The notes: generated by a model from the sequence alone, not told the origin. DNA of 64,000 nt from an uncultured Gemmatimonadaceae bacterium (GCA_963829055.1 CAWHHI010000008.1:192001-256000), one strand, 5' to 3'; positions 1 to 62,706 are shown, counted from the first letter of the stretch. Made by a program: numbers and translations.

Positions 1-1774
1 CATTGGGGACACAAGGCGCTCAACATCGTTTCGTCGTCGTCGCCCACCGGAACGCAGTTCCTGCAGGCCGTCGGCGCGGCCGAAGCGACGCTTCGCGCCA
101 AGCTTCTCGATATCACGACCGGTTTCCAGGACGACGAAGTCGTTTTCGTCTCGACCGGTGACGGCACGACGAGCGAGGGCGAGTTCTGGGAATCGCTGAA
201 CACGGCGTCGAACCTCAAGCTTCCCGTCATCTACCTCGTCGAAGACAACGGCTACGCGATCTCCGTCCCGGTCGAGGTGAACACGGCCGGCGGCTCGATC
301 TCGAAGCTGGTGGCGTCGTTCCCAGACCTGTTCATCCAGGAAGTGGACGGCTGCGACTTCGTCGCGAGCTACGCGGCCATGACGAAGGCAGCGGAGTACA
401 CGCGGGCGAGAAAGGGTCCGGCGCTGGTACACGCGCACGTGATTCGCCCGTACTCGCATTCGCTCTCGGACGACGAGGTGATGTACCGTCCGGCTACCGA
501 GCGCGAGGCCGACGCCGCGCGCGATCCGGTCACGACATTCCCGCAGTGGCTCGTCGCACAGGGGCACGCGACCGATGCAGACATCGCAGCGATCCAGGAA
601 GAGGTCGACGCGCTCGTTCTCGCGGCAACGGACGACGCGCTCGCGCAGCCGCAGCCGGGCGCGGAGACGGTCTACTACGGCGTGTACTCCCCCGACGTCG
701 ATCCGACCAGCGAGCAGTTCGACACCGAGGACGACCCGCAGTTCTCGGGTAACGAGACGACGATGGTCGACCTGCTCAACGCGTGCATGAAGGATGAGAT
801 GCGTCGCGATGAGCGCATCGTCGTGTTCGGCGAGGACGTGGCCGACGTCTCGCGCGAGCAGTACCTCGGCCAGGTGAAGGGCAAGGGTGGCGTGTTCAAG
901 GTGACGTGGGGCCTGCAGAAGGAATTCGGCGGCACGCGCGTCTACAACTCGCCGCTCGCCGAAGCGAACATCATCGGACGCGCGATCGGCCTCGCGCTGC
1001 GCGGCTTCAAGCCGGTCGTCGAGATCCAGTTCTTCGACTACATCTGGCCGGCGTACATGCAGCTGCGCGAACGAGCTCGCGACGATGCGCTGGCGCTCGA
1101 ACAACAACTTCTCCGCGCCTGTCGTCGTCCGGACGACGTACGGCGGCTACATCCGCGGCGCGATCTATCACTCGCAGACCGGCGCGTCGCTGTTCACGCA
1201 CTGCCCCGGGCTGCGCGTCGTTTGCCCGGCAACGGCGCTCGATGCGAACGGGTTGCTGCGCACGGCGATCCGCTGCGACGATCCGGTGATCTTCCTCGAG
1301 CACAAGCATCTCTACCGTCAGACGTACAACAAGGCCGCGTATCCTGGTCCGAACTTCATGATTCCGTTCGGAAAGGCGCAGGACGGTGCGCGAGGGAACG
1401 GACGTCACGGTGGTCACGTACGGCGCGACGGTGCAGCGCGCGTTCGCGGCGGCGAACCAGGTGGCGGAGAACGGACTCTCCGTCGAGGTGATCGACCTGC
1501 GCTCGCTGTCCCCGTGGGACCAGGAGGCCGTGTACGCGTCGGTGAAGAAGACGAATCGCGTCATCGTCGCCTACGAGGATTCGCTGTCGTGGGGCTACGG
1601 CGCGGAGATCGCGGCTCGCGATTGCCGACGACTGCTTCCCATGGCTGGATGCTCCCGTTAGGCGCGTCGGCGTCGACGGATACGTTCGTCGGCTACGCGC
1701 CGCAGCTCGAGGATGCGATCCTGCCGCAGGTCGAGGACTTCAGGAAGGCGTACGAGGAGATCGTGAAGTTTTAA
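1..1774 (+). CDS. 2-oxoacid (probably branched-chain) dehydrogenase E1, fused alpha+beta subunits; 5' end outside window; several frameshifts
   Basis: Frame 1 from base 1 reads [19 protein letters not shown]...[15 protein letters not shown] (ThDP motif). Beta-subunit motifs [24 protein letters not shown] and VEVIDLRSL are spread over ORFs 277, 1085 and 1386; TAA at 1772-1774. Confidence 0.9.
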
Positions 1775-1780
1775 CGACCG

Positions 1781-1818
1781 ACGGCGCTGGTTGGCTCGGG
1801 TGACGCAACCAGCGCCGT
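1781..1818. terminator. 13-bp stem hairpin between convergent genes (REP-like or bidirectional terminator)
   Basis: ACGGCGCTGGTTG (1781-1793) pairs with CAACCAGCGCCGT (1806-1818). Confidence 0.6.
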
Positions 1819-1829
1819 GCGAACACGAC

Positions 1830-2545
1830 TCAGGGCTTCTTGAAGAGGCCTTTGAGTCCCTTCTTCACCGCCGAGCCCTTGTCGTCCTTCGTCCTTCGTG
1901 CTCGCGTTCTCGAGTGAGTCGGTGAGGCCGGTGTTCTTCCCTGCCTTGTTCGCGCTGTCGGCGGCCACCTGAGTGGCTTCCAGCCCGGCCGTCATGTCCG
2001 TCACGGCGTAGTCGCGCGGATACGTGAACAGGCCGGCATCGATCGGGCCTTTCTTGATGTCCGACACCGACGTGACGAGCGTGTCGTACGTCGTCGCCTT
2101 CTTGTCATCCGTCTGCTGCATGTACGTCGTGGCTTTCAGCACGACGCCACGGCCGGGCCCTTTCACGTAGTCGTCCAGCGTGGCCATGAGCTCCGGGTTG
2201 GTGGTACGAAGGCCGCCGGCGAAGCTCGTCACCCAGACGCGAATGGCGGCGTCGTCCGGCGCCAGGTCTGGCGAGACGAACGCATCCATGGTGCTCGTCG
2301 AGGTTGTCTTGGTGCGTGAGATGAGCACGCGCATCTCGATCGTCTGCCCGGACGTGATGCGAACGTGCCGCGTCTTGAAGCCCTGGATGGTCTCGCCTGC
2401 GCCAAGATCCTGAAAGTCGAACGTCTCGTTAAAGTCGAACGTCTCGTTCGACGTCTTCATCTTGATGAGCGGATTGTTCGTGAGCGCGCCGAGCGTGCCG
2501 CCTCACGCGCCAGCCGGCATGATCATGACCTGCTTCCGCTCCCGA
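1830..2545 (-). pseudogene. DUF4412-like exported protein remnant (5' truncated, in-frame TGA, two tandem duplications)
   Basis: Reads ERKQVMIMPAGA*GGTLGALTNNPLIKMKTSNETFDF... and includes ETIQGFKTRHVRIT and IDAGLFTYPRDY. 18-bp duplication at 2413-2448; a 7-bp duplication at 1884-1897 shifts the natural end KKGLKGLFKKP*. Confidence 0.55.
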
Positions 2546-3136
2546 TCTCGCAATCACTACCACCCGTCGTGGTGTAGATCACGTGTCACAGGTGCTGTAG
2601 CGCACTTGCGACGGGGCCAGTATAAACCGCTGCGGTTATGCCACAGTTAGAAGCGTCTCATCTCCGGCCGACAACACTTACAAGTATTTGGTTCCCAACC
2701 AAATTGAGGTGGCCGGATCCGATTCTGACGGCGCGCTGACGCTGACAGACGGACCGTTGACTGGCCCGTTCACGCTCACCCCCGCGGCGCGTTGATACCA
2801 CTCCGGTGCGCATGCGCCCACGCCCGGGCAGGCGCCGACGGGAAGAAATCTGCGAGAGCCGGCGGGACAACGGCCGGTTGCCTAACGCGGCGTCGGCGGG
2901 ACGAGTGTACACAACGACACGGAGTAGGCGGCCGAGCGGCTGCGCACTCGCCGACAGCCATCGCGCCAGACGCCTTGGGCGTGGTCGGGGTGCCGCGTTC
3001 AGTTAGGCGGCCACGAGCTCACATCGCTCAGGCGGGGCGGGCGTGATAATCGCTCTAACCCGCGCCACGGGGTCGGTCGAATGTGCTCTAGCGCACAAGC
3101 GTCTCTTCGGCTAACCTAACCGCTCTGCGTCGTCCA

Positions 3137-6100
3137 TTGGAAAGCACCCACTTCCGGCCCCACCACAAGAGCGTGCTTCACCTTCGGCTACTCGGCGGCG
3201 CAGCGGTCCTGTCATCCGATGGCGCCCTCACCGGGGCGGCAGGACGACGACGCGCACTCGCGTTGTTGGCGCTCGTGGCTTCGGCGCGGGACGACGGCCT
3301 GGCGCGGGATCGCGCGCTGGCGCTGCTGTGGCCCGAGCTCGATTTCGACCGCGCCCGCAACAATCTGAAGCAGCTGGTCTTCTCGCTCCGACGAGCGCTC
3401 TCGCCCGACGTGTTCGCTGCCACGGGGGCCTCGCTGCGACTCGACCCAAACGTCATCACCGTCGACGTTTGGGCCTACGAGAAGTCCATCGCCGATGGCG
3501 CGCTCGAAAGTGCCGTGGCGCGGTACGGCGGACCGTTCCTCGACGGCTTCAGCGTTCCCGGTCTCCCCGAGTTCGAACGGTGGGTCGAGACGGAGCGCGA
3601 GCGACTGTCGCGCGTTCATGCCGAGACGCTCGACACCCTGGCCGAGCGCGCTCGTCGTGCCGGGCAGTTCGAGATCGCGGCGGCGTGGCGACGCCACCTC
3701 GCCGCGCTCGACCCTCTCAGCGCGCGATACGCGGTGTCCTTCGTGCGCTCGCTATCGGACGCCGGTGACGTGCCCGGGGCGCTGCGGCATGCGCTCCTGT
3801 TCGAGCGCCTCGTGCGAAGTGAGCTCGATGCGGACGTTGGACCCGATATGCGCCTCCTGGTGGCGCAACTCCGCCTCCGATCCGAGACGCTCACAGGAAC
3901 GCGCCATCACCAGCGCCGAAGTAGCGATCCTGACCGCCGAGTCGCGCGCGGCCGCCGCCGCTGCCGTCAGTGCTGACGCGCAGGAGACGTCCCCTCCCGA
4001 GCAAGAACATCAAGAAAAACAGCGTTCGCGGTGGCGTTCGGCGATGGGGCGGGCGGTTCCGCGAATCAGTCCGCGACGTGTAGCCATCGGCGGACTGTCG
4101 ATCGCCGTCATTCTTCTCGGGCTGATGAGCCGATCGCGACTCTTCGCTCCGACTGCCGCGATGGGCGAAGTGCCCTCTGATGTGCCGGCGACGGTGGCAG
4201 TGTTCGCGTTCGATGGACGCACCAGCGCGTTGACCGGCGAACTGTCGCGCGCGACCGCCGAGCTGCTCACCGCTTCGCTCGACGGCGGCACGGGCCTAAC
4301 GGCGATCACCGCCCCAGTCGACGCGCAGCCGGACGTGCGGAAGATGTCGGCGGATTCCTCCGTCATCGATCCGGCGAGCGCCGCCCGCACGGCGGGACGC
4401 CTCGGTGCGAGACTGTTCGTGCTCGGTCGTATCGTGGAGGTCGGCGGCCGCCTGCGCGTCACCGCGACGATGCACGACCGGGCGAGGACCGATCCGCCCC
4501 TTGCCCGCGCATCCGCGGAAGGCTCCGCGAACGAAATCTTCGAAGTCGTCGATCACGTCGCGTCGCAGCTGCTCGCGGGTCGGTTCCCCGGAACGAGGGG
4601 AGCACTCGCACGAGTAGCCGCGACGACCTCGGCCTCTCTGCCTGCTGCCAAGGCGTACTTCGCGGCGGAGCAACAGATGGGCAATGGCCGCTTTTCCGCG
4701 GCGCTCGATGCGCTTCGGGATGCCGTGCGCCTCGACAGTGGTTTCGCGGTCGCGTACTACCGCATGAGCCACGCGGCCGAGTTGATCGGTAACGACGCGG
4801 AGACGCGATGGGCTGCCGACGCGGCGGTGCGTTCCGCCTCGAGACTCGACGACCACTATCGTCGCGTACTCGTCGCGGCTGCTGCCCGTGACGAAGGCGA
4901 CATCACGACAGCCGAACGCGCGTATTCGCGCCTCACGCTGGACTATCCCAACGACGCCGATGCGTGGTTCGGCCTCGGCGAGGCGCTGTTTCATCTGAAC
5001 CAGCTTCGCGGCCGCTCGCCGGTCGAAGCGCGCGACGCGTTCGTACACGTCGTGGAGCTCGATGGACGTCACGTCGAGGCGCTCGTGCATCTGGCGCGCA
5101 TCGACGCCATTCGCGGCGATTCCGCCAGCGTCGATGGATGGCTGTCTCGCGCGCGGCAATACGCCTCCGACGAACTGGTCGGCCGAGTCGCGTTGCATGT
5201 CCGAGCCCTGAGCGGCGTGGACCGGCAGCGCCTCCAGCGCGCCAGCATGCTTCGCGGGGGAGCGGGCGCGCGCCAGTTGCTCGTTGGCGCGGACCCGGGT
5301 GATGTCGAGCAGTTCGCCGCACAGTTCCTCACCGCCGACATACCGGGCGACCTCGCCGCGTACGGTCACCGACTCTCGGCCTATGCGAGCGCCGCTCAGG
5401 GAAAGTTCCGTATCGCGCTCCGGCATCTCAATGAAGTGCAGGAGTCCGACGTCGATTCCGACATCGAGGTTCGGTCCCTGATCGTCGCCACTCCAGGCGC
5501 ACCGTTCGATTCCGCGACGATTGCCCAGACGCGGATGGCGGTGGAGCGTTGGCAGCCGTCAGATCTTCGCGATCCCGATCAGTCGCTCGATGCGATCGCG
5601 GCGAGTCGCGGTCATACGTTGCTTCGGCTCCATCGGGCGGGCCTCATCGCGCTTCGAATGGGTGACACGGCCGCCGCAGCGACTGCGGCTGCACGACTGG
5701 CGCGTATCTCCGAACCCGACTCGGAAATGACGCCGACCGCAACCGCTCTCGCGCTCAGTCTCAGGGCCCGCCTTGCGGCAGCTGCGGGAGATTCCGCGCG
5801 GGCACTCGCGCTGCTCGATCAGGTGCAATGGGCGCGCGTCGGACGCGCGGCGGCAACCGAGCCGCTCGATCGACTGCTGCGGGCGGATCTGCTGGCGGCC
5901 ACGGGGCGCTATCCCGAAGCCCTTCGCTGGTACGCGACGTTGGGCCTCGGCTGCCCGCAGGAGTTGCCGCTGGTCGGGTTCGCGGCCCTCGGGATGGCGC
6001 GAACGAGCGAGCGTATGGGCGATCGGGCGGGAGCGGCAAAGCAGTACCGACGCGTCGCCGACTTGTGGCGCGACGCCGACCCCGCATTGCAGGCGATCGC

Positions 6101-6149
6101 CGCCGCGGCGACGCAGCGCATCACGGCCCTCGATACCGCCGCTCGTTAG
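3137..6149 (+). CDS. SARP/BTAD-domain transcriptional regulator fused to a transmembrane helix and TPR-rich region (frameshift near 3900)
   Basis: N-terminus LRLLGG...LLWPE...ARNNLKQLVFSLRRAL...YGGPFLDGF...FERWVETERERL (BTAD). ORF 3495 supplies the TM segment VAIGGLSIAVILLGL, VAVFAF and TPR repeats. Confidence 0.8.
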
Positions 6150-6188
6150 GTCGGCGGCGGTTGCATCGATCCTCTCCAGCCCTCCGAG

Positions 6189-7893
6189 CTACTCGGGGGG
6201 CTTTCGTTCGTAGACGACCCGCCCGCCTACCGCGGTGAGCGCCACGTGGGCGTCGCGGATCTGCTCGGGCGCAATGCGCGTGAGATCACGGTCGATGATC
6301 GCGAAATCCGCCAGCGCTCCGACAGCTGAGAATTCCCTTCTCTTTCTCATCGAACGAGGCATAGGCTCCGCCGTGCGTGTAGGCGCGCAGCGCGTCCTCG
6401 ACCGAGATCTTCTGCTCGGGAACCCAGCCGTTCGGATTCCGGTCGTCGAGCGTGCGCCGCGTGACCGCCGCGTAGATGCCTTCAAGCGGCGTCGGTGGCG
6501 CGACGAACCAGTCGCTCCCGAATGCGAGCGTCGCGCCGGCATCGCGGAGCGACCGGAAGGCATATGTCGTTTTCGCTCGCTCGGCGCCGATGACCTTTTC
6601 CGCCCACCGGCCATCATCGATGGCGTGATACGGCTGCATGCTCGCGACGACGCCGAGCGCCGCGAAGCGCGGGATGTCGGCCGGCGCGATGTGTTGCGCA
6701 TGCTCGATGCGAAACCGCCGATCACGCGGGCCGTTTTCCTTCTCGACCCGTTCGTAGATGTCGAGTTGTTGCCGGATTGCCCGGTCGCCGATCGCGTGGA
6801 CGATGACGTGCAGCCCCGCCTTGTCGGCGCCGGAGACCCACCGATACAAGTCGTCGGGGGTGTTCACGAACAGGCCGGTATCCGATGGCGCGTCGGTGAA
6901 CGGCTCGAGCATCGCGGCGGTATGCGAACCTAACGACCCATCGACGAACCCTTTGAGCGCTCCGATTCTGAACCAGGCGTCACCACGGCCGCGCGCAGCG
7001 ACCGTATCGCGCAGCTGCTCCCACGTCGACAGCGGTACGGCAGCATAGATCCGCGTCCGGAGCCGATCGGCTTTGCGCGCGCGTTCGAAAACCGCGACGT
7101 CGTTCCACGAGCCCATATTGTGGATGGACGTCACGCCCTGTGCAGCCACATACGCCATTGCCGCATCCAGCGCGCGATCCTCGAGCTCCGGAGGCGGGTT
7201 CGGCGCGACGGCATTCACGACATCCATCGCGTTGTCCTTCAAGACACCAGTCGGCTCGCCAGAAGCGTTGCGAACGATCGTCCCGCCAGCTACGTCGCGC
7301 GACGCGCGGGTCACCTTCGCCGCCGCGAGCGTCGCGGAATTCGCGAGCGCCATGTGCCCGTCGAGCCGAGACACCCAGACCGGGTTGTTCGGCGTGACCG
7401 AATCGATCCACTCGCGACGCGGGAGCTCGCCTCCCCAATGCTCGTGATCCCAATCGCCACCGGTGATCCATGCCCCAGCCGGGATCGTCGCGGCGAACGC
7501 CTTGATGCGCGCGATGAACTCAGCAGGTGTCTTCGCGTCGCGAAGCTGCACCGAAGAGAGGCGGAAGCCGCCATCGACAAAATGCACGTGCGCATCGACG
7601 AATCCGGGCACGACCATTTTCCCGCCGGCGTCGATCACGCGGGCGTTGCCCGTGACTTTGCGGACCGCCGCGCTCGACCCGACCATGGCGATACGCTCGC
7701 CGCGCACCGCGAGCGCCTCGGCCCATGGACGAGTCGAGTCTCCGGTCCAAACGCGCGCGTTGACGACGGCGAGCGTCATGGGACCTCCCGAGGCGGCACC
7801 GGTGTCTCCGGCGGCGGCATTCCTGTCGCTCATCTGACAGCTAGCGGAAAGGCTGCCGACCAACAGCGCGGAGACGAGCGGTCCGAGACGCAT
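6189..7893 (-). CDS. Amidohydrolase 3 family (YtcJ-like) lipoprotein; frameshift near 6330
   Basis: PGFVDAHVH, KGFVDGSLGS, HAIGDRA, RIEHAQ and FGSDW motifs; C-terminus LADFAIIDRD...TAVGGRVVY lies in ORF 6189. Confidence 0.9.
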
Positions 7894-8782: not shown

Positions 8783-8859
8783 CGCCGGGCAACGACTGCC
8801 TGGCACGCGAAGGGGCTCGCCTTTCGCGTACTCGGGACCCACGTGCGATGGAGAGCGGT

Positions 8860-9690: not shown

Positions 9691-9696
9691 CCGAGC

Positions 9697-10059
9697 CTAA
9701 CGCTCGTCCGCGCGGGGCGTGGTGGAGAGGCGGTGAAACACCGCCTCCTCCACCACGCGACCGTGCCGCAAGTGCTCGACGACGATTCGTTCCAGCAACG
9801 CCGGCGTGACGCCCGCGTACCAGACGCCATCGGGGTAGACGACGACGATGGGGCCGCCGACGCACACGCCAAGGCAGGGCGTTTCACCACGCTTGACCCG
9901 TGTTGGGCCGAACAGCAGATCTTCGCGCTCGAGCAACTTCGCCAGCAGACTATAGAGCTGCCGGCCGCGTCGATCCGGAGAACAGAACCCCCCCGTACAC
10001 ACCAGGACGTGGCGCTGATACGGCTCCATGCGCGGCTGGCCGACATCGAAGCCGGTCAC
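9697..10059 (-). CDS. Thioredoxin-like [2Fe-2S] ferredoxin
   Basis: HVLVCTGGFC...CLGVCVGGPIVVVYPDGVWY...IVVEHL. Confidence 0.9.
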   Translation of the reverse strand: MTGFDVGQPRMEPYQRHVLVCTGGFCSPDRRGRQLYSLLAKLLEREDLLFGPTRVKRGETPCLGVCVGGPIVVVYPDGVWYAGVTPALLERIVVEHLRHGRVVEEAVFHRLSTTPRADER

Positions 10060-10565: not shown

Positions 10566-10649
10566 GGGTCACCCGGTCGCATGAACGTTAGGCGCGCGGG
10601 GCGTCGGCTCCGTGCAGCGGATCGCATTCACATCGTCACGAGGAGCGAC

Positions 10650-11556: not shown

Positions 11557-11564
11557 GGCTGGCC

Positions 11565-11732: not shown

Positions 11733-12257
11733 GTGCCTAACGACAAATCAACCATGACCCAGGACCGCCGGATGACCGAGCCCGGAACGACCGACACAAC
11801 GCCGCCTGCCCCGGTGCAGGGGAAGCCGCCGTCTCGCGTGATCGTGCGCTGGAAGGGCGAAGGAACCATGGCGTTCGAAGGCGGCAAGGCCAAGGGTGGT
11901 CCCACGATCACGGTCGACAACACCGGGAAGGCGGAGCCGGGGCCGGTGGACACCCTGCTCATCGCGCTCGCGGCGTGTACCACGGAAGACGTGCTGACGA
12001 TCCTGGCGAAGCGCCGAACCCCGGCGACGCGACTACAGATCGAAGTCGAAGGCAAGCGAGCGAACGCGACGCCAGCGCGGCTGACGCACATCCATCTCCG
12101 GTACGTGGTGGACGGCGAAGGGATCGACCGGGCGAACACGTTGCGCGCGATCGAGCTGGCCGTAACCAAGTACTGCTCGGTACGAGATTCGCTGGACAAG
12201 TCCATCGAGATCGAATGGTCGCTCGTTCTGAACGGGAGCGACGAAGCGGACGCCTGA
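11733..12257 (+). CDS. OsmC/YhfA family protein
   Basis: GPVDTLLIALAACT...AIELAVTKYCSVRDSL. Confidence 0.88.
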   Translation: MPNDKSTMTQDRRMTEPGTTDTTPPAPVQGKPPSRVIVRWKGEGTMAFEGGKAKGGPTITVDNTGKAEPGPVDTLLIALAACTTEDVLTILAKRRTPATRLQIEVEGKRANATPARLTHIHLRYVVDGEGIDRANTLRAIELAVTKYCSVRDSLDKSIEIEWSLVLNGSDEADA

Positions 12258-12858: not shown

Positions 12859-13050
12859 GTGGGTCGCGCGCCTAACGCGCGCTGACCGCCCCACCGTTCT
12901 GCCGCTGTCCGTCCGAACGCGCGTATCACGCGCTTACACGTTCGGCGCGCACACACGCTTCTCGACAATTCGCCTGGTCGCTTCGGGCACACCCCACGGT
13001 GTGTCGCGTGAGCGCCGTCTGGTCCGAGATCACTCCCGCGGTGAACCGAT

Positions 13051-15379
13051 ATGAGTCGCTCGTTGTTGTTGGGCCGTAGCCTGCCCGTTGCCCTTTCCGC
13101 ATTGTTGCTGCTCGCACCCGCGCTTCGCGCGCAGGATGCCGGCACGATCGAAGGCACTGTTCGCGCGACCGGAAGCGGCGCGCCGCTGTCCGATGTCGTC
13201 GTTGCCGTGCAAGGCACCACGCGCGGCGCCATGACGGACGCACAGGGCAGATTCCGCATTGCCGCCGTTCCGCTCGGGGAGCGCGTCGTCACTGACCCGG
13301 ATCATCGGACATGCGCGCGGTGCGCAGACCGATTCAGGTGACGGCGGACAGCGTCGTCGCACGTCGACTTCTCGCTGACGGAAGTCGCTGCCGTCATCGC
13401 GCCGACCGTGGTGAGTGCGACGCGTGAGGTGCAGCGTCGCACGGATCAGTCGTCGACGATCGATGTGCTCGAAGGCGCCGCGATTCGCGAGGTGCGCGCG
13501 GCTCACCCGTCCGGCATCATGCAGCGGCTGCCCGGCGTCCACGCGACGCAGCTGTCTGGCGAGGGCTTGAGCATGGCCATCCGCCAGCCGATCACGACCA
13601 AGCCGATGTACCTGTATCTCGAAGACGGCGTGCCGACGCGCTCGACCGGCTTCTTCAACCACAACGCGCTCTACGAAGTGAACCTGCCGCAGGCGGGCGG
13701 GCTCGAAGTCCTGAAGGGACCCGGCACCGCGCTGTACGGCAGTGACGCGATCGGCGGCGTCGTGAACGTGCTCACGCGTGCCGCTCCGGTCACGCCGACG
13801 CTCGACGCGACGGTGGAAGGCGGGCAGTTCGGCTACACGCGCATGCTGGCGACTGGCGGCTTCACGAAGGGCGTCAACGGGGTGCGTGCGGACCTCAACC
13901 TCACGCATGCGGACGGATGGCGAGACGAGGGCGGCTTCAAGCGCCAGAGCGGAACGATCCGCTGGGATGGCGCGTTCGGCGCGTTCACGACGAAGACCGT
14001 GGTCGCCGCGCTCGAACATTGATCAGGCGGAAGCGGCCGGGCTGACTCAGGCGCAGTACGATTCGCGCCCCGAGATCAACCCGTCGCCGATCGCGTTCCG
14101 AAAGGTGCAGGCGCTCCGCGTGTCGACGGCGATCGAGAAGGACAACGGGCGCAGCCTGTTCAGCCTAACGCCGTACGCTCGTCACAACGTGCTCGAGATC
14201 ATGCCCTCGTGGCAGCTGACGTTCAACCAGCAAGTCTGGGACACGCGGAACAACTCGGTCGGCTTGCTGGCGAAGTACCGCCGCGACTTCGCGCCGATGC
14301 GCACGCGCGTGATCGCGGGTGCAGACCTGGACCTGAGCCCGGGCTCGTTCGTGGCGAACAAGATCACGGCGCCGGCGAGCGGCGGGATCTTCCCCTCGTA
14401 CACGACGGGCGAAAAGCAGTACGACTACGATGTCACCTATCGTCAGGCGTCGCCGTACGTGCACACCGAGTTTTCGCCGGTGAGCCGCCTGCGCCTCGAC
14501 GCTGGCGTGCGGTACGATGCGTCCGGCTACGTCTACGACACGAAGCTCGATCCGATCCAGACGGGCCGCTGGCGCCGGCCGGCCGACACGACGGTCAACT
14601 ACACGCGCCTGAGCCCGAAGCTCGGCGCGACACTCGACGTGACGCGCAACGTCAACCTGTTCGCGTCGTACCGCGAAGGGTTCCGCGCACCGGGGCAGAG
14701 CCAGCTGTTCCAGCAGAACTCCAACGTGGCGAGCACCGTCGGCCTCAAGCCGGTGACGGCGAAGAGCGTCGAGGGCGGAGCGCGCGGACAGGTCGGCGGT
14801 CGGCTCATCTACTCGCTTGCCATCTATGACATGCACATCCAGAACGACATCCTGAGCGTCCTCGACGCGCAGGGCGCGCAAACGACGTCGAACGCGGGCG
14901 AGACGCGGCACCGCGGCGTGGAAGCTCAGCGCCGGGACCATGATCACGAGCCAGCTCCGATTCGACGCGGCGTACTCGACGTCGAAGCAGACGTACGAGG
15001 AGTGGGTGATCCCGGTGGCTGGCAAGAACGTGAGCTACGCCGGGAAGACGATCGAAACGGCGCCGCACACGTCGACGAACCTGCTGCTGACGTACTCGCC
15101 TAACGTTTGAACGGCGGTCGCGTCGCGGCCGAGTGGTCGGCGACCGGCAAGTACTACGCGGATCCGGAGAACACGCAGACGTACGATGGCTTCAACCTCA
15201 TCACGCTGCACGGCAACTACGTGCTCCGTAACATCGGCGAGTTCTTCGTGCGCGTGACGAACGTGACGAACGAGAAGTACTCGGAGGTCGCGACGTACAA
15301 CGCGTTCAACAAGTGGCAGTACACGCCGGGCACGCCGCGGTCGGTGTTCGCGGGGTTGCGATACAACTGGCAGAAGTGA
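13051..15379 (+). CDS. TonB-dependent receptor with N-terminal carboxypeptidase-regulatory-like domain; multiple frameshifts
   Basis: Signal peptide, GTIEGTV...TDAQGRF, plug EVLKGPGTALYGSDAIGGVVNV, barrel SPKLG...NLFASYREGFRAP, C-terminus PGTPRSVFAGLRYNW. Confidence 0.9.
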
Positions 15380-16668
15380 TGAAGATGAAACGAAACCACT
15401 TCCCCGCTCTCCTCGCACTCGTGCTCACGGCCGCGTGTCGTGACGCCGGAGCGCGCACGACGTTCTCCGATCCCGAGACGGTGAGTGCGGCAACGACCGT
15501 CGGCGCCGCGCCCATGTTCGCGCTGTCGCCCAGCGGCAAGCGCGCCGTCGCGTGGGTGTCGGCGCCCGGTGGCGGCACCGACGGTCGGCTCTACGTCACC
15601 ACCGGCGGCGCGCCGACCGAGTTGCGTGACTCGTTAGGCCCCATCGAACCACACGGTGAAGCGCCACCGAAGCTCTCCTATGGTCCTGACGGCACGCTGT
15701 ACGCGCTGTACGCCGTCGGCAAGGTCGTGCCGGGACGGCGGTTTCCGATGAGCTCTCTTCGCCTGGCGAAGTCGGCCGACGACGGCAAAACCTGGACGGC
15801 ACCAGTCACGATCGCGTCCGACAGTGCGTTCGGCACGCGCAACTTCCACGCACTCCACGTGGGCAGCGATGGCGCGCTCTACGTCGCCTGGCTCGAGGCA
15901 AGCCAGGGCAAGTCGAAGACGTTCCTGACGCGCTCCACCGATCAGGGTACGACGTGGACGACTCCGGTCGCCGCCGACGTCAACCAGTCGTGCCCGTGCT
16001 GCCGCACGGCGATCGCGACGGCGGACGACGGTACGCTGTACCTCGCGTGGCGTACGGTGCTGCCGGGTAACGTCCGTGACGTCGTCGTCGCGAGATCGAG
16101 CGATCACGGCGCGACGTGGGCGGCGCCGGTTCGCGTGCACGCCGATGACTGGGTGTTCGACGGCTGCCCGCACGCTGGTCCGTCGATGCAGGTCGATTCC
16201 GCCGGCACGGTGCACATCGCGTGGTGGACCGGGAAGCAGGGCGCGGCCGGCACATTCTACGCCCGATCGGCCGACCGAGGCGCAACGTTCGGGACGCCGA
16301 TCCCACTCGGGGTCGGCGAATTCTCAGCGCCTGCGCACGTCCAGCTCGCGTTAGGCCAGGGGCACACGGTCGTCGCCGTGTGGGACGATGGCACGGTGAG
16401 GACGCCGAAGGTCGTGATGCGCGTCTCGCACGACAACGGCGAGTCATTCAGCCCTGCCGCGCTCGTGAGCACCGAAGGGCGAGCGGCGACGTTCCCCGTG
16501 CTGGCGCTGCGCGACCGAGATCTAACGATCGCATGGTCCGAGCAGTCGGAGGCCGAACACGATCACGAGAAGGAGATGGCGCCGAACATGAAGGACCCCA
16601 AAGCCATGAAGGGCCTGTCACGGGTCGGTGAGTCGGCTGTGCGCGTTCGTAACGGGCGCCTGCAATGA
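15379..16668 (+). CDS. BNR/Asp-box (sialidase-fold) lipoprotein with CPCC and CPH motifs
   Basis: Lipobox LTAAC; Asp-boxes SADDGKTW, STDQGTTW, SSDHGATW, SADRGATF and SHDNGESF; QSCPCCRT; DGCPHAGP. Confidence 0.85.
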   Translation: MKMKRNHFPALLALVLTAACRDAGARTTFSDPETVSAATTVGAAPMFALSPSGKRAVAWVSAPGGGTDGRLYVTTGGAPTELRDSLGPIEPHGEAPPKLSYGPDGTLYALYAVGKVVPGRRFPMSSLRLAKSADDGKTWTAPVTIASDSAFGTRNFHALHVGSDGALYVAWLEASQGKSKTFLTRSTDQGTTWTTPVAADVNQSCPCCRTAIATADDGTLYLAWRTVLPGNVRDVVVARSSDHGATWAAPVRVHADDWVFDGCPHAGPSMQVDSAGTVHIAWWTGKQGAAGTFYARSADRGATFGTPIPLGVGEFSAPAHVQLALGQGHTVVAVWDDGTVRTPKVVMRVSHDNGESFSPAALVSTEGRAATFPVLALRDRDLTIAWSEQSEAEHDHEKEMAPNMKDPKAMKGLSRVGESAVRVRNGRLQ

Positions 16669-17255: not shown

Positions 17256-17277
17256 CGATTCGTCGCGCGGACGCCCG

Positions 17278-22377: not shown

Positions 22378-22410
22378 GATTCCCTTCCTCGGCTCGGCCG
22401 TCGGAGTTCG

Positions 22411-22792: not shown

Positions 22793-22802
22793 TTGACGAT
22801 CC

Positions 22803-30848: not shown

Positions 30849-30857
30849 ACGCAGCCC

Positions 30858-48396: not shown

Positions 48397-49483
48397 GCGC
48401 ACTGCCGCGGCCGTCGCTTTCAGACGCCGCTGTCGAGACCACCGCGCATTCGCTCGAACAACGGATCAAGGCGCAGGCGTACGGACTCGGCTTCGATCTC
48501 GTTGGCATCACGCGCACGGGACCGGCACCGACGTCCGGCCGGTTCGAGCAATGGCTTCGCGCGGGCCGCGCCGGCGACATGCACTATCTCGAGCGCGGCG
48601 CGGAGAAGCGTCGCGACTCGCGACGTCCGGTGGACGGTGCACGCAGCGCGGTGGTCGTCGGTCTCGACTACGGCGGCCGCGAGCCCGCGGGACCAGTCGC
48701 TCGTTATGCACGCGGCGCGGACTATCACGACGTCATGGAAGCGCGCCTGCGGGAGCTTCACCGTCGCCTGAATGAATGGGTCGGCGCGCCGGTGCGCGGA
48801 AAGGCGTACGTCGATACCGGGCCGATTCTGGAGCGCGACCTCGCGCGCCGTGCCGGGCTCGGATGGTTCGGCAAGAACACGATGCTCATCAACCCACGCA
48901 GCGGATCGTTCTTCTTTCTCGGTGCGCTGCTGCTCGACGTCGAACTCGCGCCGGACACGCCGTTCGAGAGCGAGCATTGCGGGCACTGCACGCGGTGTCT
49001 CGATGCGTGTCCGACCGACGCGCTGCTGGAGCCGGGCGTGCTCGATGCGCGGCGCTGCATCTCGTACCTGACGATCGAGCTCAAGGGCGAGATCCCGGTG
49101 GAGTTGCGCGAGGCGATCGGCGGTCTCGTCTACGGATGCGACATCTGTCAGGACGTGTGCCCGTGGAACATCAAGTTCGCGAAGCTCCTGCCCGACGAGT
49201 CTCCGTTCGCGCCGCGTGAGGCGTTAGGCGGCAAGGACGCGCGGTCGCTCGCCCGCGACGTGTTAGGCATGACTCAGGAGGAGTTCAGCCGCGCCTTCAA
49301 GGGCTCGCCGATGAAGCGCGCGAAGTTGCGCGGGCTGAAGCGCAACGCGACCGTGGTGCTCGGCAACGTCGGAACGCGCGGACGACACCGACGTGCTCAC
49401 GCGTTCGCTCGACGACCGAGGAGCCGCTCGTACGCGAACATGCGGCGTGGGCACTGAGGCGGCTCAGCGCGCGACACAGCTAA
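48393..49483 (+). CDS. queG: Epoxyqueuosine reductase; frameshifts near 49378-49415
   Basis: ARYARGADYH, VDTGPILER, GWFGKN, CGHCTRCLDACPT, CISYLTIE, GCDICQDVCPWN; HEAT tail EPLVREHAAWAL ends at TAA 49481-49483. Confidence 0.93.
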
Positions 49484-49626: not shown

Positions 49627-51815
<2,189 letters not shown>

Positions 51816-58501: not shown

Positions 58502-58649
58502 AGCGTTCAACGGCGGATCGAGCTCGCCGCGCACCGACACTTCGGAGGCGGCCTAACGCCGGCCTCGCCGGAACTACGGGCGTTTCTGGACAGGAATGTC
58601 CGCATCGACATTGACGCGCGGCGAGAGCGGCGTGGTCGCTAGTGGCTCG

Positions 58650-59159: not shown

Positions 59160-59200
59160 CGGTTGACGTTAGGCAGTGAGCGCGCCCGCCGCCAGGGCGC

Positions 59201-59920: not shown

Positions 59921-59924
<4 letters not shown>
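59201..59924 (-). CDS. RibD C-terminal domain reductase-like protein; frameshift near 59825
   Basis: ICHMMASVDGRI, LMLEGGGAING, LIDEVSLL. Confidence 0.85.
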
Positions 59925-60931
<1,007 letters not shown>

Positions 60932-60966
60932 CGAGTTCTATCCGGATCTGGCGTAAAGGTGATTGC

Positions 60967-62001
60967 TCAAAGCTCGATCATGACCTTGATGGACTCGCGC
61001 TCATTCATCGCCCGGTAGCCATCAGGCACGCCTTCGAGATCAATCACGCGATCGAACACTCGGCCCGGTTCGATTCTGCCTTCGAGGACATCCGGCAGCA
61101 GCTCCTCAATGTAGGCGCGCACCGGAGCCGGGCCACCGGCGATGGTGACGTTGTTGAAGAACGTCTCTCGCGCCAGCGGAATCGAGTCGTCTTGCGGCAC
61201 GCCGACACGGCCAACGGCGCCGCCAGGGCGGGCGATGCTCAAGGCGGTGCGCATCGACTCCTCGTAGCCAACGCACTCGAGCACGGAGTGAGCGCCGAGC
61301 CCGCCGGTGAGCTCGCGCACGCGCTCGATCGCTTCGTCTCCGCGCTCGCTGACGACGTCCGTCGCGCCGAACTCCCGTGCGAGCGCGATCCGGTCGCGAT
61401 GACGACCCAGCATGATGATCTGCTCGGCGCCAAGTCGGCGGGCGGCGATCACGCCGCAGAGGCCGACGGCGCCATCGCCGACGACCGCCACCGTCTTCCC
61501 CCGGCGGACCTTCGCGGCGAGGGCCGCGTGGTGGCCGGTGCCCATCACGTCAGAGAGCGTGAGGAGCGAGGGCATCAATGCGTCGTCGCGGCCCACCGGA
61601 AGAGCGACGAGTGTTCCGTCCGCTTGTGGGACGCGCACCGCCTCGCCCTGACCGCCGTCCACGTCGGGACTGCCCCACCCGCCACCGTTGAGACACGAGG
61701 TCTGCAACCCATCCCGGCAGAACACGCACGTGCCGTCCGACCAGACGAACGGAGCGACGACGAGGTCGCCTGCCTTGATCGTGCGAACATCCGGGCCCAC
61801 GGCAACCACGGTGCCGATGAACTCGTGCCCCATGCGTCGCCCGGTCTCGTTAGGCTGCATCTTCTTGTACGGCCAGAGGTCGCTGCCGCAGATGCAGGCG
61901 TGGGTGATGTCGACCAAGGCATCGGTCGGTTTCATCAGCCGCGCGTCAGGAACGGTTTCGACACGGACGTCGCCCGCGCCGTACATCAGAGTTGCTCGCA
62001 T
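60967..62001 (-). CDS. Zinc-dependent alcohol dehydrogenase (MDR)
   Basis: CICGSDLW, GHEFIG, LSDVMGTG, GDGAVG. Confidence 0.92.
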   Translation of the reverse strand: MRATLMYGAGDVRVETVPDARLMKPTDALVDITHACICGSDLWPYKKMQPNETGRRMGHEFIGTVVAVGPDVRTIKAGDLVVAPFVWSDGTCVFCRDGLQTSCLNGGGWGSPDVDGGQGEAVRVPQADGTLVALPVGRDDALMPSLLTLSDVMGTGHHAALAAKVRRGKTVAVVGDGAVGLCGVIAARRLGAEQIIMLGRHRDRIALAREFGATDVVSERGDEAIERVRELTGGLGAHSVLECVGYEESMRTALSIARPGGAVGRVGVPQDDSIPLARETFFNNVTIAGGPAPVRAYIEELLPDVLEGRIEPGRVFDRVIDLEGVPDGYRAMNERESIKVMIEL

Positions 62002-62049
62002 TGATGGCCTTTCGTGTCAGTTGACAGTTGCCGGTGCTTCGTCGACAAC

Positions 62050-62305
62050 GAGAGACGAGTCGTCCGGGTAGGTGTGCCGCGTGGAGCGATAGCGTTTGCG
62101 AATCCGAGGCCGATGCGACTTCCGGAGCACTGGTTCCGACAGCGACATGCCGGGCACGACACTCTGCGCCATTCCAACGGATGTTCTCGAGCAGCGGCTG
62201 CGCCCAGTAGAGGTTGCCGACAGCCGTGCCTCCGGCGACCGCGAACAGCAGCGTCAATCCGCGGGACATCCCTGGGGGTCCGCGGTGTCCAGTGGGGCTG
62301 GTCAC
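62050..62305 (-). pseudogene. MFS transporter remnant (first TM only)
   Basis: [23 protein letters not shown] is a typical MFS TM1; similarity ends after about 42 codons. Confidence 0.65.
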
Positions 62306-62706
62306 GTGTTCGGGCGCTGGTACTGCTCATCGCTGACGTGCTCCATCCAGTCGACGGCCTTGCCGTCGAGCGCCTCCTGGATGGCGATGTGTTGCATGGC
62401 CGTGGTCGCCGCTGCGCCGTGCCAGTGCTTCTCGTTAGGCTCGAACCACACCACGTCGCCCGGACGCACTTCCTCGACCGGTCCGCCCTCGCGCTGTACC
62501 CAGCCGCAGCCGAAGGTGACGATCAGCGTCTGACCCAGCGGATGCGTGTGCCACGCGGTGCGCGCGCCAGGCTCGAACGTGACGGCATTGCCTGCCGCTC
62601 GCGCCGGAGCGCTGGCTCCGTACAACGGATCGATCCGGACGGTGCCGGTGAACCAGTCAGCCGGGCCCTTCCCCGACGGCTGTGAGCCGCTTCGCGTGAT
62701 TTTCAC
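62302..62706 (-). CDS. Cupin domain protein
   Basis: [39 protein letters not shown]. Confidence 0.92.

What the first reader, a model, noticed from the sequence alone, without database searches (positions are those of the whole stretch)
1656..62440. Window-wide dispersed signal GCCTAACG/CGTTAGGC written into genes through rare codons (DUS- or HIP1-like)
Seen: by hand I count 20 GCCTAAC on + (2880, 4294, 9695, 11735, 12870, 14163, 15098, 16748, 20770, 21486, 23366, 23897, 25213, 30992, 36471, 43905, 58551, 60262, 60290, 60908). I count 21 GTTAGGC sites (near 1656, 3002, 10586, 15632, 16349, 25640, 32437, 35607, 37868, 39034, 41516, 42873, 44615, 49222, 49262, 51600, 53018, 59167, 60010, 61848, 62433). 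Of these 41, 35 are the full octamer. About 8 more are ACCTAACG variants (6144, 6928, 17250, 19512, 22353, 28793, 30334, 32052), giving a consensus RCCTAACG about every 1.3 kb. A mononucleotide model at about 68% GC predicts only 2-3 octamers in 64 kb. Most copies lie in conserved genes, in different frames, using codons rare at this GC (TTA-GGC, CTA-ACG, GTT-AGG, CCT-AAC) or serving as stop codons (6144, 9695, 17250). Known: DNA uptake sequences (Neisseria, Pasteurellaceae) and cyanobacterial HIP1 behave this way, whereas Chi and KOPS are strand-skewed, which this motif is not. Inference: a lineage-specific system (DNA uptake, chromosome-organising protein, or modification-linked mutation/repair drive) maintains this motif. 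I know of no description of it.
Basis: partly seen in the sequence, partly recalled or inferred. Interest (0 to 1): 0.88.

Follow-up and report, generated by a model that had tools for sequence, protein, structure and literature searches.

The report
Hyper-abundant GCCTAACG word in Gemmatimonadaceae
This soil bacterium has written one eight-letter DNA word about five thousand times through its ordinary genes against its own codon habits, much like the self-tags that a few bacteria use to choose which DNA to take up, and the word is the same as the conserved end of integron gene-cassette sites, but what reads it is still unknown.

Summary
GCCTAACG occurs 35 times in the window (1.1 expected). 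It occurs 5,004 times in the 7.78-Mb genome, 49 times an order-2 Markov expectation, and is by far the most exceptional 8-mer.

- **Not a repeat element:** the flanks carry no information.
- **Not codon or protein composition:** a synonymous-codon shuffle leaves 135 of 3,077 coding copies. The word holds 48% of all TTA codons.
- **No strand skew:** none relative to replication.
- **Spacing:** sites avoid each other at short range.
- **Conservation:** sites are kept in 45 of 88 aligned site-genome pairs in the genus, against 14 expected.
- **Independent writing:** separate lineages wrote the word at the same peptide positions.
- **Patchy spread:** all 7 genus genomes are rich, as are a few other genera. 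Most relatives hold it almost only as the inverse core of real integron attC sites.

Integrase, competence genes and methyltransferases do not track richness.

My best reading is an uptake-sequence-like molecular drive with an unknown reader. This scan found the same word before in other genomes. I found no published description.

The parts
1656..1663 (-). GCCTAACG word
   Evidence: outside my predicted CDS; kept in 3 of 4 aligned genus genomes
2880..2887 (+). GCCTAACG word
   Evidence: outside my predicted CDS; not aligned in relatives
4294..4301 (+). GCCTAACG word
   Evidence: in TPR gene 4125-6149(+) read xGC CTA ACG; kept in 0 of 3 (present only in this genome among those aligned)
6144..6151 (-). 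ACCTAACG variant; its TAG is the stop of 4125-6149(+)
6928..6935 (+). ACCTAACG variant: a decayed word
   Evidence: all 5 aligned genus genomes have the perfect word here
9695..9702 (+). GCCTAACG word
   Evidence: between CDS 8848-9690 and 10233; kept in 0 of 3
10586..10593 (-). GCCTAACG word
   Evidence: kept in 3 of 4
11735..11742 (+). GCCTAACG word
   Evidence: start of CDS 11733-12257(+), xxG CCT AAC Gxx
12870..12877 (+). GCCTAACG word
   Evidence: kept in 2 of 2
14163..14170 (+). GCCTAACG word
   Evidence: TonB-receptor gene 13967-15103(+), xGC CTA ACG; kept in 3 of 4 (the fourth has GCCTGACG)
15098..15105 (+). GCCTAACG word; its TAA is the stop of 13967-15103(+)
   Evidence: kept in 1 of 4
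15632..15639 (-). GCCTAACG word
   Evidence: BNR gene 15376-16668(+), xCG TTA GGC; kept in 4 of 4
16349..16356 (-). GCCTAACG word
   Evidence: same gene, xCG TTA GGC; kept in 0 of 3 (relatives have CTT or ATT in place of TTA, or GGA in place of GGC)
16748..16755 (+). GCCTAACG word
   Evidence: CDS 16665-17255(+), xxG CCT AAC Gxx; kept in 1 of 2
17250..17257 (+). ACCTAACG variant; its TAA is the stop of 16665-17255(+)
19512..19519 (+). ACCTAACG variant
   Evidence: relatives unrelated here
20770..20777 (+). GCCTAACG word
   Evidence: P-type ATPase 19990-22377(-), xCG TTA GGC; kept in 1 of 3
21486..21493 (+). GCCTAACG word
   Evidence: same gene, xxC GTT AGG Cxx; kept in 0 of 2
22353..22360 (-). 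ACCTAACG variant
23366..23373 (+). GCCTAACG word, present only in this genome among those aligned
   Evidence: all 5 relatives differ at position 4 (G, C or A), three of them elsewhere too; peptidase M16 gene, xxG CCT AAC Gxx
25213..25220 (+). GCCTAACG word
   Evidence: CDS 25164-26153(+), xGC CTA ACG; kept in 5 of 5
28793..28800 (+). ACCTAACG variant, nearer the word than the relatives are
   Evidence: relatives have ATCTCACG, ATCTCACA, ACGCCACG or ACGTCACG
30334..30341 (+). ACCTAACG variant of a word
   Evidence: 3 relatives perfect, 1 ACCTAACG, 1 CCCTAACG
30992..30999 (+). GCCTAACG word
   Evidence: CDS 30858-31502(+); kept in 5 of 5
32052..32059 (-). ACCTAACG variant
32437..32444 (-). GCCTAACG word, present only in this genome among those aligned
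   Evidence: kept in 0 of 5
35607..35614 (-). GCCTAACG word
   Evidence: kept in 2 of 2
36471..36478 (+). GCCTAACG word
   Evidence: FadB-like gene 35772-37934(-), K-S-L-G written xCG TTA GGC; kept in 3 of 4; the same position is written in two other rich lineages (L018, L023)
37868..37875 (-). GCCTAACG word
   Evidence: same gene, V-P-N-A written xxG CCT AAC Gxx; kept in 5 of 5; written independently in L016
41516..41523 (-). GCCTAACG word, present only in this genome among those aligned
   Evidence: all 5 relatives have CGTSAGGC
42873..42880 (-). GCCTAACG word
   Evidence: kept in 1 of 4, two others CGTTAGGT
43905..43912 (+). GCCTAACG word
   Evidence: kept in 5 of 5
44615..44622 (-). GCCTAACG word
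49222..49229 (-). GCCTAACG word
   Evidence: QueG-like gene 48393-49457(+), xCG TTA GGC; kept in 1 of 5
51600..51607 (-). GCCTAACG word
58551..58558 (+). GCCTAACG word
59167..59174 (-). GCCTAACG word
60010..60017 (-). GCCTAACG word
   Evidence: aldo/keto reductase 59921-60931(-), xxG CCT AAC Gxx
60262..60269 (+). GCCTAACG word
   Evidence: same gene, xxC GTT AGG Cxx
60290..60297 (+). GCCTAACG word
   Evidence: same gene, xCG TTA GGC
60908..60915 (+). GCCTAACG word
   Evidence: same gene, xCG TTA GGC
61848..61855 (-). GCCTAACG word
   Evidence: alcohol dehydrogenase 60967-61986(-), xxG CCT AAC Gxx
62433..62440 (-). GCCTAACG word
   Evidence: CDS 62302-62838(-), xxG CCT AAC Gxx

Best explanation
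**What it is.** GCCTAACG is a free-standing 8-bp double-stranded DNA signal. Positions 2-7 are strict, and the outer positions allow G>A>C at 1 and G>A at 8. It is not part of any longer repeat.

**How it most likely works (inferred).**
- It has been spread through the chromosome one point mutation at a time by a biased-transmission process of the kind worked out for the uptake sequences of Neisseriaceae and Pasteurellaceae.
- A component that handles incoming DNA, at uptake or at a step just after it, favours fragments that carry the word.
- Homologous recombination then fixes word-creating alleles.
- The word therefore accumulates wherever the encoded protein tolerates it, in either orientation, until roughly every 1.5 kb carries one.

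**Shown:** the excess, the writing through rare synonymous codons and some amino-acid shifts, the strand balance, the short-range spacing rule, conservation and turnover within the genus, and independent writing in separate lineages.

**Inferred:** that the bias acts on incoming DNA.

**Link to integrons.** The word is identical to the inverse core (R'' box plus one base) of the attC sites of this order's own integrons.
For: **Size of the excess**
- 5,004 copies in the genome, at 38-49 times order-1 and order-2 Markov expectation. It is the top 8-mer.
- Other GC-rich TAA-containing 8-mers sit at a median observed/expected of 0.43.
- Flank information is at most 0.13 bit per position.

**Survives a protein-preserving null**
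- 3,077 coding copies observed against 135 after the shuffle.
- 1,249 of 2,581 TTA codons lie in the word.
- Share of permissive peptide contexts that are written: 22.8% of [SPTA]-L-G, 20.5% of [SRCG]-L-T, 59.0% of x-P-N-[ADEGV] and 11.1% of x-V-R-[LPHQR].
- P-N is followed 1.2-1.5 times too often by the residues whose codons start with G.
- The word supplies 345 stop codons.

**Orientation and spacing**
- 2,457 on one strand against 2,547 on the other. Neighbouring sites share orientation in 0.519 of cases.
- There is no flip of orientation at the C16 terminus beyond what gene orientation explains.
- Gaps of 200 bp or less make up 4.4% of gaps, against 12.3% for a random scatter.

**Maintenance and turnover**
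- 45 of 88 aligned site-genome pairs are kept, against 14.0 expected.
- Per-base identity is 0.844 inside the word and 0.760 in the flanks.
- The one-off variant ACCTAACG is kept in only 1 of 28 pairs.

**Independent writing**
- The same peptide positions of a FadB-like enzyme are written in separate rich clades. Poor clades use common codons there.
- The rich state needs at least 6 changes on a 74-row tree.

**Hardware for DNA import**
- ComEC, PilM and ComEA-like genes are found in 31 of 31 relatives.
- This genome also has DprA and 7 pilin-like genes.
Against: - No biased uptake has been measured, and no reader has been found.
- The import genes are just as present in word-poor relatives, so they do not explain who is rich.
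- This genome's only ComEA-like hit is weak (35 bits, 81-aa frame).
- Three orphan pilins exist. I tested two across 31 relatives, and neither separated rich from poor.
- Known uptake sequences drift into lineage 'dialects'. Here the same exact 8-mer recurs in separate genera, and by earlier unchecked notes in other phyla. A private self-tag would not be expected to do that.
- No inverted pairs of the word act as terminators, unlike in Neisseria.
Confidence: 0.45

Rival explanations
1. The word is the binding site of an abundant chromosomal DNA-binding protein, and selection keeps each site. The protein could be a nucleoid-associated or chromosome-organising factor. It could also be a domesticated tyrosine-recombinase relative that recognises the attC/attI R box.
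For: - The match is exact and non-palindromic, and sites are conserved.
- The spacing is regular at short range.
- The word is identical to the R'' box that integron integrases bind.
- The same word recurs in separate lineages. This fits a reader whose specificity is pinned by another function.
Against: - Five thousand sites written against codon bias would need selection at each site. A drive explains that more easily.
- Integrase does not track richness. It scores over the cut-off in 18 of 31 relatives, rich and poor alike. It is only in broken pieces in the richest genome, G014, and was not found over the cut-off in the rich genomes G002, G004 and G006.
- No candidate protein was identified.
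Confidence: 0.2
2. A modification- or repair-linked mutational drive, of the HIP1 or very-short-patch kind. An enzyme marks the word, and a mismatch repair activity keeps converting near-words into it.
For: - HIP1 is a precedent for a hyper-abundant octamer tied to methylases (abstract and Discussion of bioRxiv 10.64898/2026.06.24.733823).
- This genome encodes an Eco57I/MmeI-type methylase-helicase and a D12-class methylase-like gene.
Against: - Vsr was not found in any of the 8 rich genomes. It is found in 3 poor ones.
- C5 methylase was found in 0 of 8 rich genomes.
- N6_N4_Mtase was found in 0 of 7 genus genomes, and N6_Mtase in 1 of 7.
- The Eco57I-type gene has full-length orthologues in poor genomes too (G008; G012's match is cut by its contig end).
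- The single-mismatch neighbours are not specifically depleted once the baseline for TAA-containing words is used.
- A repair drive of known type gives far smaller excesses (established knowledge of Dcm/Vsr in E. coli, recalled).
- These are incomplete MAGs (77-92% complete), so 'not found' is not 'absent'.
Confidence: 0.12
3. A Chi-like signal. The word tells a helicase-nuclease to stop degrading linear DNA and start recombination. Word-bearing incoming DNA therefore survives and recombines more often.
For: - The size (8 bp) and density (about one per 3 kb per orientation) are in the Chi range.
- Such a signal would also act as a drive through recombination.
- Native DNA carries the word, while three large blocks of foreign-looking DNA lack it.
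Against: - There is no orientation bias relative to replication. On C16, 40% of sites are + on one side of the terminus and 53% on the other.
- The excess is far larger than for known Chi sites (recalled).
- I did not search for RecBCD, AddAB or AdnAB.
Confidence: 0.1
4. A by-product of integron activity. The words are footprints of, or landing sites for, integrase-mediated cassette recombination at secondary (attG-like) sites.
For: - The word equals the attC inverse core.
- In word-poor relatives most copies are real attC sites in cassette arrays. In G021, 40 of 65 copies are.
- Cassettes are known to integrate at genomic attG sites (passage in PMC12614218 citing Loot et al. 2024).
Against: - The words sit in frame inside intact conserved genes with no inserted sequence, and they arise by synonymous point changes.
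- Only 7 attC-like hairpin loci were found among 5,004 words.
- There is no excess of inverted pairs.
- Integrase presence does not track richness.
- Thousands of good integrase targets inside genes should be harmful.
Confidence: 0.06

Closest known systems
DNA uptake sequences: DUS of Neisseriaceae and USS of Pasteurellaceae
   Same: - A short exact word at about one per 1-1.5 kb, in both orientations.
- It lies mostly inside genes, in whichever frames the protein tolerates.
- It is shared by related species.
- It is spread by point mutation rather than by transposition.
- Close pairs are under-represented.
   Different: - No uptake bias has been measured and no receptor is known.
- The organism is uncultured.
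- There are no inverted-repeat terminator pairs.
- The same 8-mer recurs in several separate genera instead of drifting into dialects.
- The word coincides with a mobile-element recombination site.
HIP1 of cyanobacteria (GCGATCGC)
   Same: - A hyper-abundant octamer written into genes.
- It is conserved beyond expectation and quasi-regularly spaced.
- It is now argued to aid transformation (PMC5861425 abstract only; bioRxiv 10.64898/2026.06.24.733823 abstract and Discussion).
   Different: - HIP1 is a palindrome recognised by two methylases.
- This word is not a palindrome.
- The three main DNA-methylase Pfam families were found in almost none of the rich genus genomes.
Integron attC site: inverse core RYYYAAC and core GTTRRRY (R'' and R' boxes)
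   Same: - The first seven letters are a perfect instance of RYYYAAC (passages of PMC3053210).
- In word-poor relatives the 8-mer is the R'' end of about 100-nt attC sites, in same-strand cassette arrays next to intI.
   Different: - An attC is a structured imperfect inverted repeat of 57-141 bp that recombines as a folded single strand.
- The genomic words are lone 8-mers with random flanks.
- They have no partner box, no array and no cassette.
Chi and KOPS/AIMS
   Same: Over-represented 8-mers read by DNA-processing motors.
   Different: Those are strongly skewed towards the leading strand. This word is not.
NTS repeats read by the Ssn single-strand nuclease in Neisseria
   Same: A dispersed sequence, present in hundreds of copies, that modulates natural transformation (abstract of PMC11893778).
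   Different: - That abstract reports only hundreds of NTS copies, surrounding important genes, read by a dedicated GIY-YIG nuclease.
- This word is an 8-mer with no conserved flanks, present in thousands of copies and mostly inside genes.
- I did not search for Ssn homologues.

Membership tests
DNA uptake sequence (DUS/USS) | Genome-wide hyper-abundance of one short word far beyond composition and coding needs | tested here: met
   5,004 copies, 49 times the order-2 Markov expectation. After a synonymous shuffle, 135 coding copies remain against 3,077 observed.
DNA uptake sequence (DUS/USS) | Both orientations equally frequent, with no replication skew | tested here: met
   2,457 against 2,547. 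Neighbouring sites share orientation in 0.519 of cases, and there is no flip at the C16 terminus.
DNA uptake sequence (DUS/USS) | DNA carrying the word is taken up or transformed preferentially | not testable with these tools
   This needs a cultured strain and uptake or transformation competition assays.
DNA uptake sequence (DUS/USS) | Competence machinery present | tested here: met
   ComEC 31 of 31, PilM 31 of 31 and ComEA-like 31 of 31 relatives. DprA and 7 pilin-like genes are in G000. These genes are equally present in word-poor genomes, so this is compatible but not discriminating.
DNA uptake sequence (DUS/USS) | A cognate sequence-specific receptor (ComP-type minor pilin in Neisseria) | tested here: inconclusive
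   I searched two of three orphan pilins across 31 relatives. Orthologues were found only within the genus, with about 40% identical pilins everywhere else, rich or poor.
HIP1-type methylation-linked word | Palindromic word recognised by cognate DNA methyltransferases | tested here: not met
   The word is not a palindrome. PF00145 was found in 0 of 8 rich genomes, PF01555 in 0 of 7 genus genomes and PF02384 in 1 of 7. The Eco57I-type gene of G000 also occurs in poor genomes. Base modification itself was not testable.
Very-short-patch repair drive (Dcm/Vsr) | Vsr endonuclease with a partner C5 methylase | tested here: not met
   Vsr was not found in any of the 8 rich genomes. It is present in 3 poor ones, and G012 and G028 also carry a C5 methylase.
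Chi / KOPS | Orientation bias with the direction of replication | tested here: not met
   99 + against 146 - left of the C16 terminus, and 182 + against 164 - right of it. Gene orientation explains this.
Integron attC site | Sequence of the inverse core RYYYAAC | tested here: met
   GCCTAAC fits RYYYAAC (PMC3053210). It is the R'' end of real attC sites in relatives.
Integron attC site | Paired R''/R' and L''/L' boxes forming a 57-141 nt hairpin, in same-strand arrays by intI | tested here: not met
   Only 7 hairpin loci were found in the genome (10 strand-wise hits). There is no excess of inverted pairs. The only array is a small, degenerate one beside intI at C20:208 kb.
REP / MITE repeat | Conserved sequence beyond the core | tested here: not met
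   Flank information is at most 0.13 bit per position over 15 bases on each side.

The most novel reading that the evidence does not exclude

Cells that carry it would preferentially import or keep gene cassettes, each of which carries the word. As a side effect, the same bias acting on DNA from their own kind has driven the word through the whole chromosome.

This would explain three things:
- why the identical 8-mer, rather than diverging dialects, recurs in separate genera, and by earlier notes in other phyla;
- why richness is patchy;
- why integrase itself does not track it.
Probability: 0.12. Interest if true: 0.95.

Novelty: new variant of a known kind. Interest (0 to 1): 0.8.

Why it matters
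- Sequence-biased DNA uptake is experimentally established in only two bacterial families, and is now argued for cyanobacteria.
- A third or fourth system, in abundant and uncultured soil phyla, would change how we think about gene flow in soil.
- The spelling is shared with the integron recombination site. That would link natural transformation, homologous recombination and cassette capture in one signal.
- The word is also a practical marker. It separates native DNA from foreign or mis-binned DNA in metagenome bins (the three deserts here). It also distorts codon usage and even peptide composition, which matters for gene finding and codon-based inference in these genomes.

Tried and rejected
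**Tests that did not separate rich from poor genomes**
- Integrase as reader: TIGR02249 across 31 relatives does not track richness.
- Competence genes as discriminators: ComEC, PilM and ComEA-like are in all 31.
- Orphan pilins L091 and L092 show no rich-specific pattern. The third orphan (L089) and the four-gene minor-pilin cluster (L090) were not searched.
- Methylases and Vsr. The Eco57I-type methylase-helicase of G000 (C8:73.5-78.3 kb, in three frames in this assembly) is conserved in rich and poor genomes alike.

**Neighbour depletion as a repair signature**
- The apparent 0.2-0.4 depletion equals the baseline for TAA-containing GC-rich 8-mers (median 0.43), so I dropped it.

**Deserts as prophages**
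- The three large word-free blocks hold housekeeping genes, not phage genes.
- Gaps of 10-16 kb are only about twice as frequent as a random scatter predicts, and they hold mixed ordinary genes.

**Public reads**
- All 24 runs listed are kept as contigs, so no modification signal can be read.
- I laid four runs. None of the 40 differences shown (of 652) falls in a word, but only 0.2 were expected, so the test has no power.

**Gene finder**
- My own gene finder covers only 68.6% of the genome. So the 1,920 copies classed as non-CDS or at a gene edge include unrecognised genes.
- Coding-versus-intergenic density should therefore not be read closely.

**FadB tree**
- It is a quick FastTree of one gene.
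- 6 of the 80 rows (79 loci and the window) had frames shorter than 650 aa and were dropped before the tree. Some rows carry a wrong longest frame (long branches).
- 7 rows were dropped for the position analysis.

**Literature**
- Three searches listed no paper on this word as a genomic signal.
- 478 papers hold the letters. I saw only the top 30, all primers or constructs.

Full report
**1. Observation**

- GCCTAAC occurs 41 times in the window, 20 on + and 21 on -, against 2.35 expected.
- 35 of these are the octamer GCCTAACG. Expected is 1.11, the largest of 100 dinucleotide-preserving shuffles is 4, and none reaches 35.
- Eight more sites are ACCTAACG.
- The window is ordinary chromosome at 65-68% GC. 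It carries metabolic and regulatory genes: amidohydrolase, M48 and M16 peptidases, a P-type ATPase, a FadB-like enzyme, a thiolase, a PAS histidine kinase and others.

**2. The whole genome**

- The window lies on contig 8 of a 7.78-Mb, 20-contig assembly that is 85.9% complete.
- Its closest public relatives are soil and rhizosphere MAGs labelled Gemmatimonadaceae (record titles).
- The word occurs 2,457 + 2,547 = 5,004 times, once per 1.56 kb.
- Observed over expected is 17 (order 0), 38 (order 1), 49 (order 2) and 19 (order 3). Only from order 4 upward, where the model is trained on the word's own sub-words, does the excess fade (1.7 at order 4, about 1.0 at orders 5-6).
- It is by far the most exceptional 8-mer. 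The next ones are its own overlapping shifts.
- Other GC-rich 8-mers with TAA in the middle sit at a median observed/expected of 0.43. Against its peers, the word is about 90-fold enriched.
- Fifteen bases on each side carry at most 0.13 bit per position, apart from codon periodicity. So this is not a REP, a MITE or a piece of a longer repeat.
- Some one-letter variants are also enriched: ACCTAACG (827), GCATAACG (583), GCCTAACA (435), CCCTAACG (428) and GCCTGACG (1,763). Changes at positions 2, 6 and 7 sit at baseline.

**3. It is written against the coding sequence, not by it**

I used a crude gene finder of my own. It covers 68.6% of the genome, so the non-CDS class is inflated.

| Class | Copies |
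|---|---|
| xCG TTA GGC | 1,246 |
| xxG CCT AAC Gxx | 847 |
| xGC CTA ACG | 573 |
| xxC GTT AGG Cxx | 398 |
| The two frames that would give a stop | 20 |
| Outside predicted genes or at their edges | 1,920 |

- Shuffling synonymous codons within each gene keeps every protein and each gene's codon usage. It leaves 93 + 42 copies against 1,429 + 1,648 observed (10 shuffles). Even this null is generous, because it keeps the rare codons that the word itself contributes.
- 48.4% of all TTA codons and 16.9% of all CTA codons in the gene set lie inside the word.
- Counted by opportunity, the word is used at 22.8% of [SPTA]-L-G, 20.5% of [SRCG]-L-T, 59.0% of x-P-N-[ADEGV] and 11.1% of x-V-R-[LPHQR].
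- It supplies the stop codon of 345 of 5,993 predicted genes. That is 188 of 754 TAA stops and 157 of 1,579 TAG stops.
- The proteome itself is bent. P-N is followed 1.2-1.5 times too often by A, D, E, G or V, whose codons start with G. It is followed only 0.55-0.9 times as often as expected by the other residues tested.

**4. Geometry**

- Orientation is balanced, and neighbouring sites share orientation in 0.519 of cases.
- Contig C16 holds a switch of GC skew and gene orientation near 550 kb, which I read as the terminus. The word is 40% + on one side and 53% + on the other. This small shift follows gene orientation and is nothing like Chi or KOPS.
- Sites avoid each other at short range. 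0.6% of gaps are 50 bp or less, against 3.2% for a random scatter. 4.4% are 200 bp or less, against 12.3%.
- Inverted pairs show no excess.
- Three stretches have no word at all: C6:5,440-55,037, C11:1-46,789 and C6:591,808-623,330.
- These stretches lie at contig ends, and two have higher GC. They hold housekeeping genes (chorismate synthase, trp genes, FtsK, FolD and others) that have second copies elsewhere in the genome at only 47-64% identity.
- I read them as foreign or mis-assembled DNA from a word-poor organism.

**5. Relatives**

- All 6 other genomes of the genus are rich, with 2,501-5,112 copies.
- One genome of another genus, G014, has 6,360 copies in 5.1 Mb.
- Three genomes are intermediate (G010 605, G030 345, G018 194).
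- The other 20 of the 31 have 3-65 copies, several-fold fewer than the reversed-word control.
- I surveyed 250 further genomes of the phylum. Seven exceed twice their control: five of the same family (G114, G124, G159, G188, G235) and two of one genus of a sister family (G167, G206).
- None of the 84 genomes of the ten other families does.
- These tallies include the unpublished genomes G013, G078, G117 and G198. All four are word-poor, and no conclusion rests on them.
- Around a FadB-like gene in 79 species, 28 loci carry at least one word and 51 carry none.
- On a quick single-gene tree of 74 rows, the rich state needs at least 6 changes. Shuffled labels need 19.9 on average, and 0 of 500 shuffles needs as few.

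**6. Conservation, turnover and convergence**

- I aligned window 1-60,000 to five genus genomes at about 77% identity.
- The 29 word sites are fully kept in 45 of 88 aligned site-genome pairs, against 14.0 expected from all 8-mers.
- Per-base identity is 0.844 inside the word and 0.760 in the 12 + 12 flanking bases.
- Kin are not independent, so this is an effect size rather than a p-value.
- The variant ACCTAACG is kept in only 1 of 28 pairs. At 6928 all five relatives have the perfect word, so this copy has decayed. At 28793 and 32052 this genome is closer to the word than its relatives are.
- Some words are present only in this genome among those aligned (23366, 41516, 32437, 4294).
- In the FadB-like protein, the invariant K-x-L-G-K-T is spelled xCG TTA GGC in this genus. 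It is spelled the same way, separately, in two other rich lineages, while poor lineages use CTC, CTG or ATC.
- V-P-N-A/E is spelled CCT AAC in this genus and independently in L016, while poor lineages with the same P-N use CCG or CCC. D-T-L-G is written in a third rich clade.
- So the same force acts in separate lineages, through point changes, wherever the protein allows.

**7. The integron link**

- Earlier notes of this scan pointed to integrons, and I tested the lead.
- In word-poor relatives the hits cluster on one strand about 550 bp apart.
- They are the 5' ends of attC sites about 100 nt long. Each starts with GCCTAACG, continues through an imperfect inverted repeat, and ends in GTTAGGC, usually preceded by T.
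- These sites form cassette arrays. One array directly abuts an intI fragment.
- In G021, 40 of 65 hits lie in three such arrays.
- The published consensus of attC ends is RYYYAAC and GTTRRRY (passages of PMC3053210).
- The 5,004 words of this genome are not attC sites. Only 7 loci form an attC-like hairpin. The one integron, with intI at C20:208,008-208,958 scoring 265.7 bits, has a short degenerate array.
- Integrase scores over its cut-off in 18 of 31 relatives, rich and poor alike. It is in pieces in the richest genome.

**8. Search for a reader**

- ComEC, PilM and ComEA-like genes are in 31 of 31 relatives.
- This genome also has DprA and seven pilin-like genes.
- Two orphan pilins show no rich-specific pattern.
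- Vsr was found in none of the 8 rich genomes, and C5 methylase in none of the 8.
- N6_N4_Mtase was found in 0 of 7 genus genomes, and N6_Mtase in 1 of 7.
- An Eco57I/MmeI-type methylase-helicase, broken into three frames in this assembly, is conserved in rich and poor genomes alike.
- A D12-class methylase-like gene was not followed further.
- None of the candidates I tested explains who is rich.

**9. Reading**

- The anatomy matches what is known for uptake sequences, and for the molecular-drive model of their spread (established knowledge, recalled). It also matches what is now argued for HIP1 (abstract of PMC5861425; abstract and Discussion of bioRxiv 10.64898/2026.06.24.733823).
- Against it: there is no functional data, the import genes do not discriminate, and an identical word across separate lineages is unlike the dialects of known uptake sequences.
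That is my boldest reading (0.12).

**10. Novelty**

- Three full-text searches listed no paper on this word as a genomic signal. Only the top-ranked rows were seen.
- The survey of abundant oligonucleotides in bacteria (PMC2843746) mentions neither the taxon nor the letters CTAACG (find).
- The scan itself has reported the same word in other Gemmatimonadota and, with a ninth base, in soil Verrucomicrobia. I did not test those reports.

Noticed in passing
window 11560-11700: This is a second, unrelated repeat family. It is a palindromic, MITE-like element of about 128 bp, with inverted ends GTCATTCCGAGCG...CGCTCGGAATGAC. It gives 377 BLAST hits in this genome and many in the genus genomes. It explains the other over-represented 8-mers (ATTCCGAG, GGAATGAC and the like).
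   Followed up: partly
G000 C6:5440-55037, C11:1-46789, C6:591808-623330 (outside the window): These are three word-free blocks of 31-50 kb at contig ends. They hold housekeeping genes whose second copies elsewhere in the genome are only 47-64% identical. They are probably chimeric assembly or mis-binned DNA from another organism, or else recently acquired DNA.
   Followed up: partly
G000 C8:73551-78317 (locus L190 2551-7317), outside the window: This is a large Eco57I/MmeI-type methylase fused to an SNF2/ResIII helicase. It is split over three reading frames here but is intact (1,024-1,137 aa frames) in nearly all of the ten relatives searched (G012's match is cut by its contig end). Chorismate synthase and a D12 methylase-like gene are also split. 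This suggests indel errors in the assembly.
   Followed up: partly
G000 C20:200400-208958 (outside the window): This is the genome's own integron. The intI scores just over the family cut-off (265.7 bits). On its 3' side is a short run of same-strand GCCTAACG sites, two of which have recognisable attC partners (GTTAGGT, GTTAGCC). The array lies downstream of intI rather than upstream.
   Followed up: partly
G021:C95:1-24000, G021:C80, G019:C3, G029:C1 (loci L080-L083): Word-poor Gemmatimonadales carry large chromosomal integron arrays. There are at least 27 cassettes on one contig, with two recurring attC types of about 100 nt.
   Followed up: partly
whole-genome survey: Word-rich genomes tend to be the larger ones (3.9-7.8 Mb against a typical 3-4 Mb). 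Density varies continuously from about 0.1 to 1.25 per kb, as if lineages were at different stages of gain or decay.
   Followed up: no
window 12001-32000: Near-identical strains (contigs 98-99% alike) occur in rhizosphere, soil and freshwater-sediment metagenomes of 16 studies. The organism is widespread.
   Followed up: no
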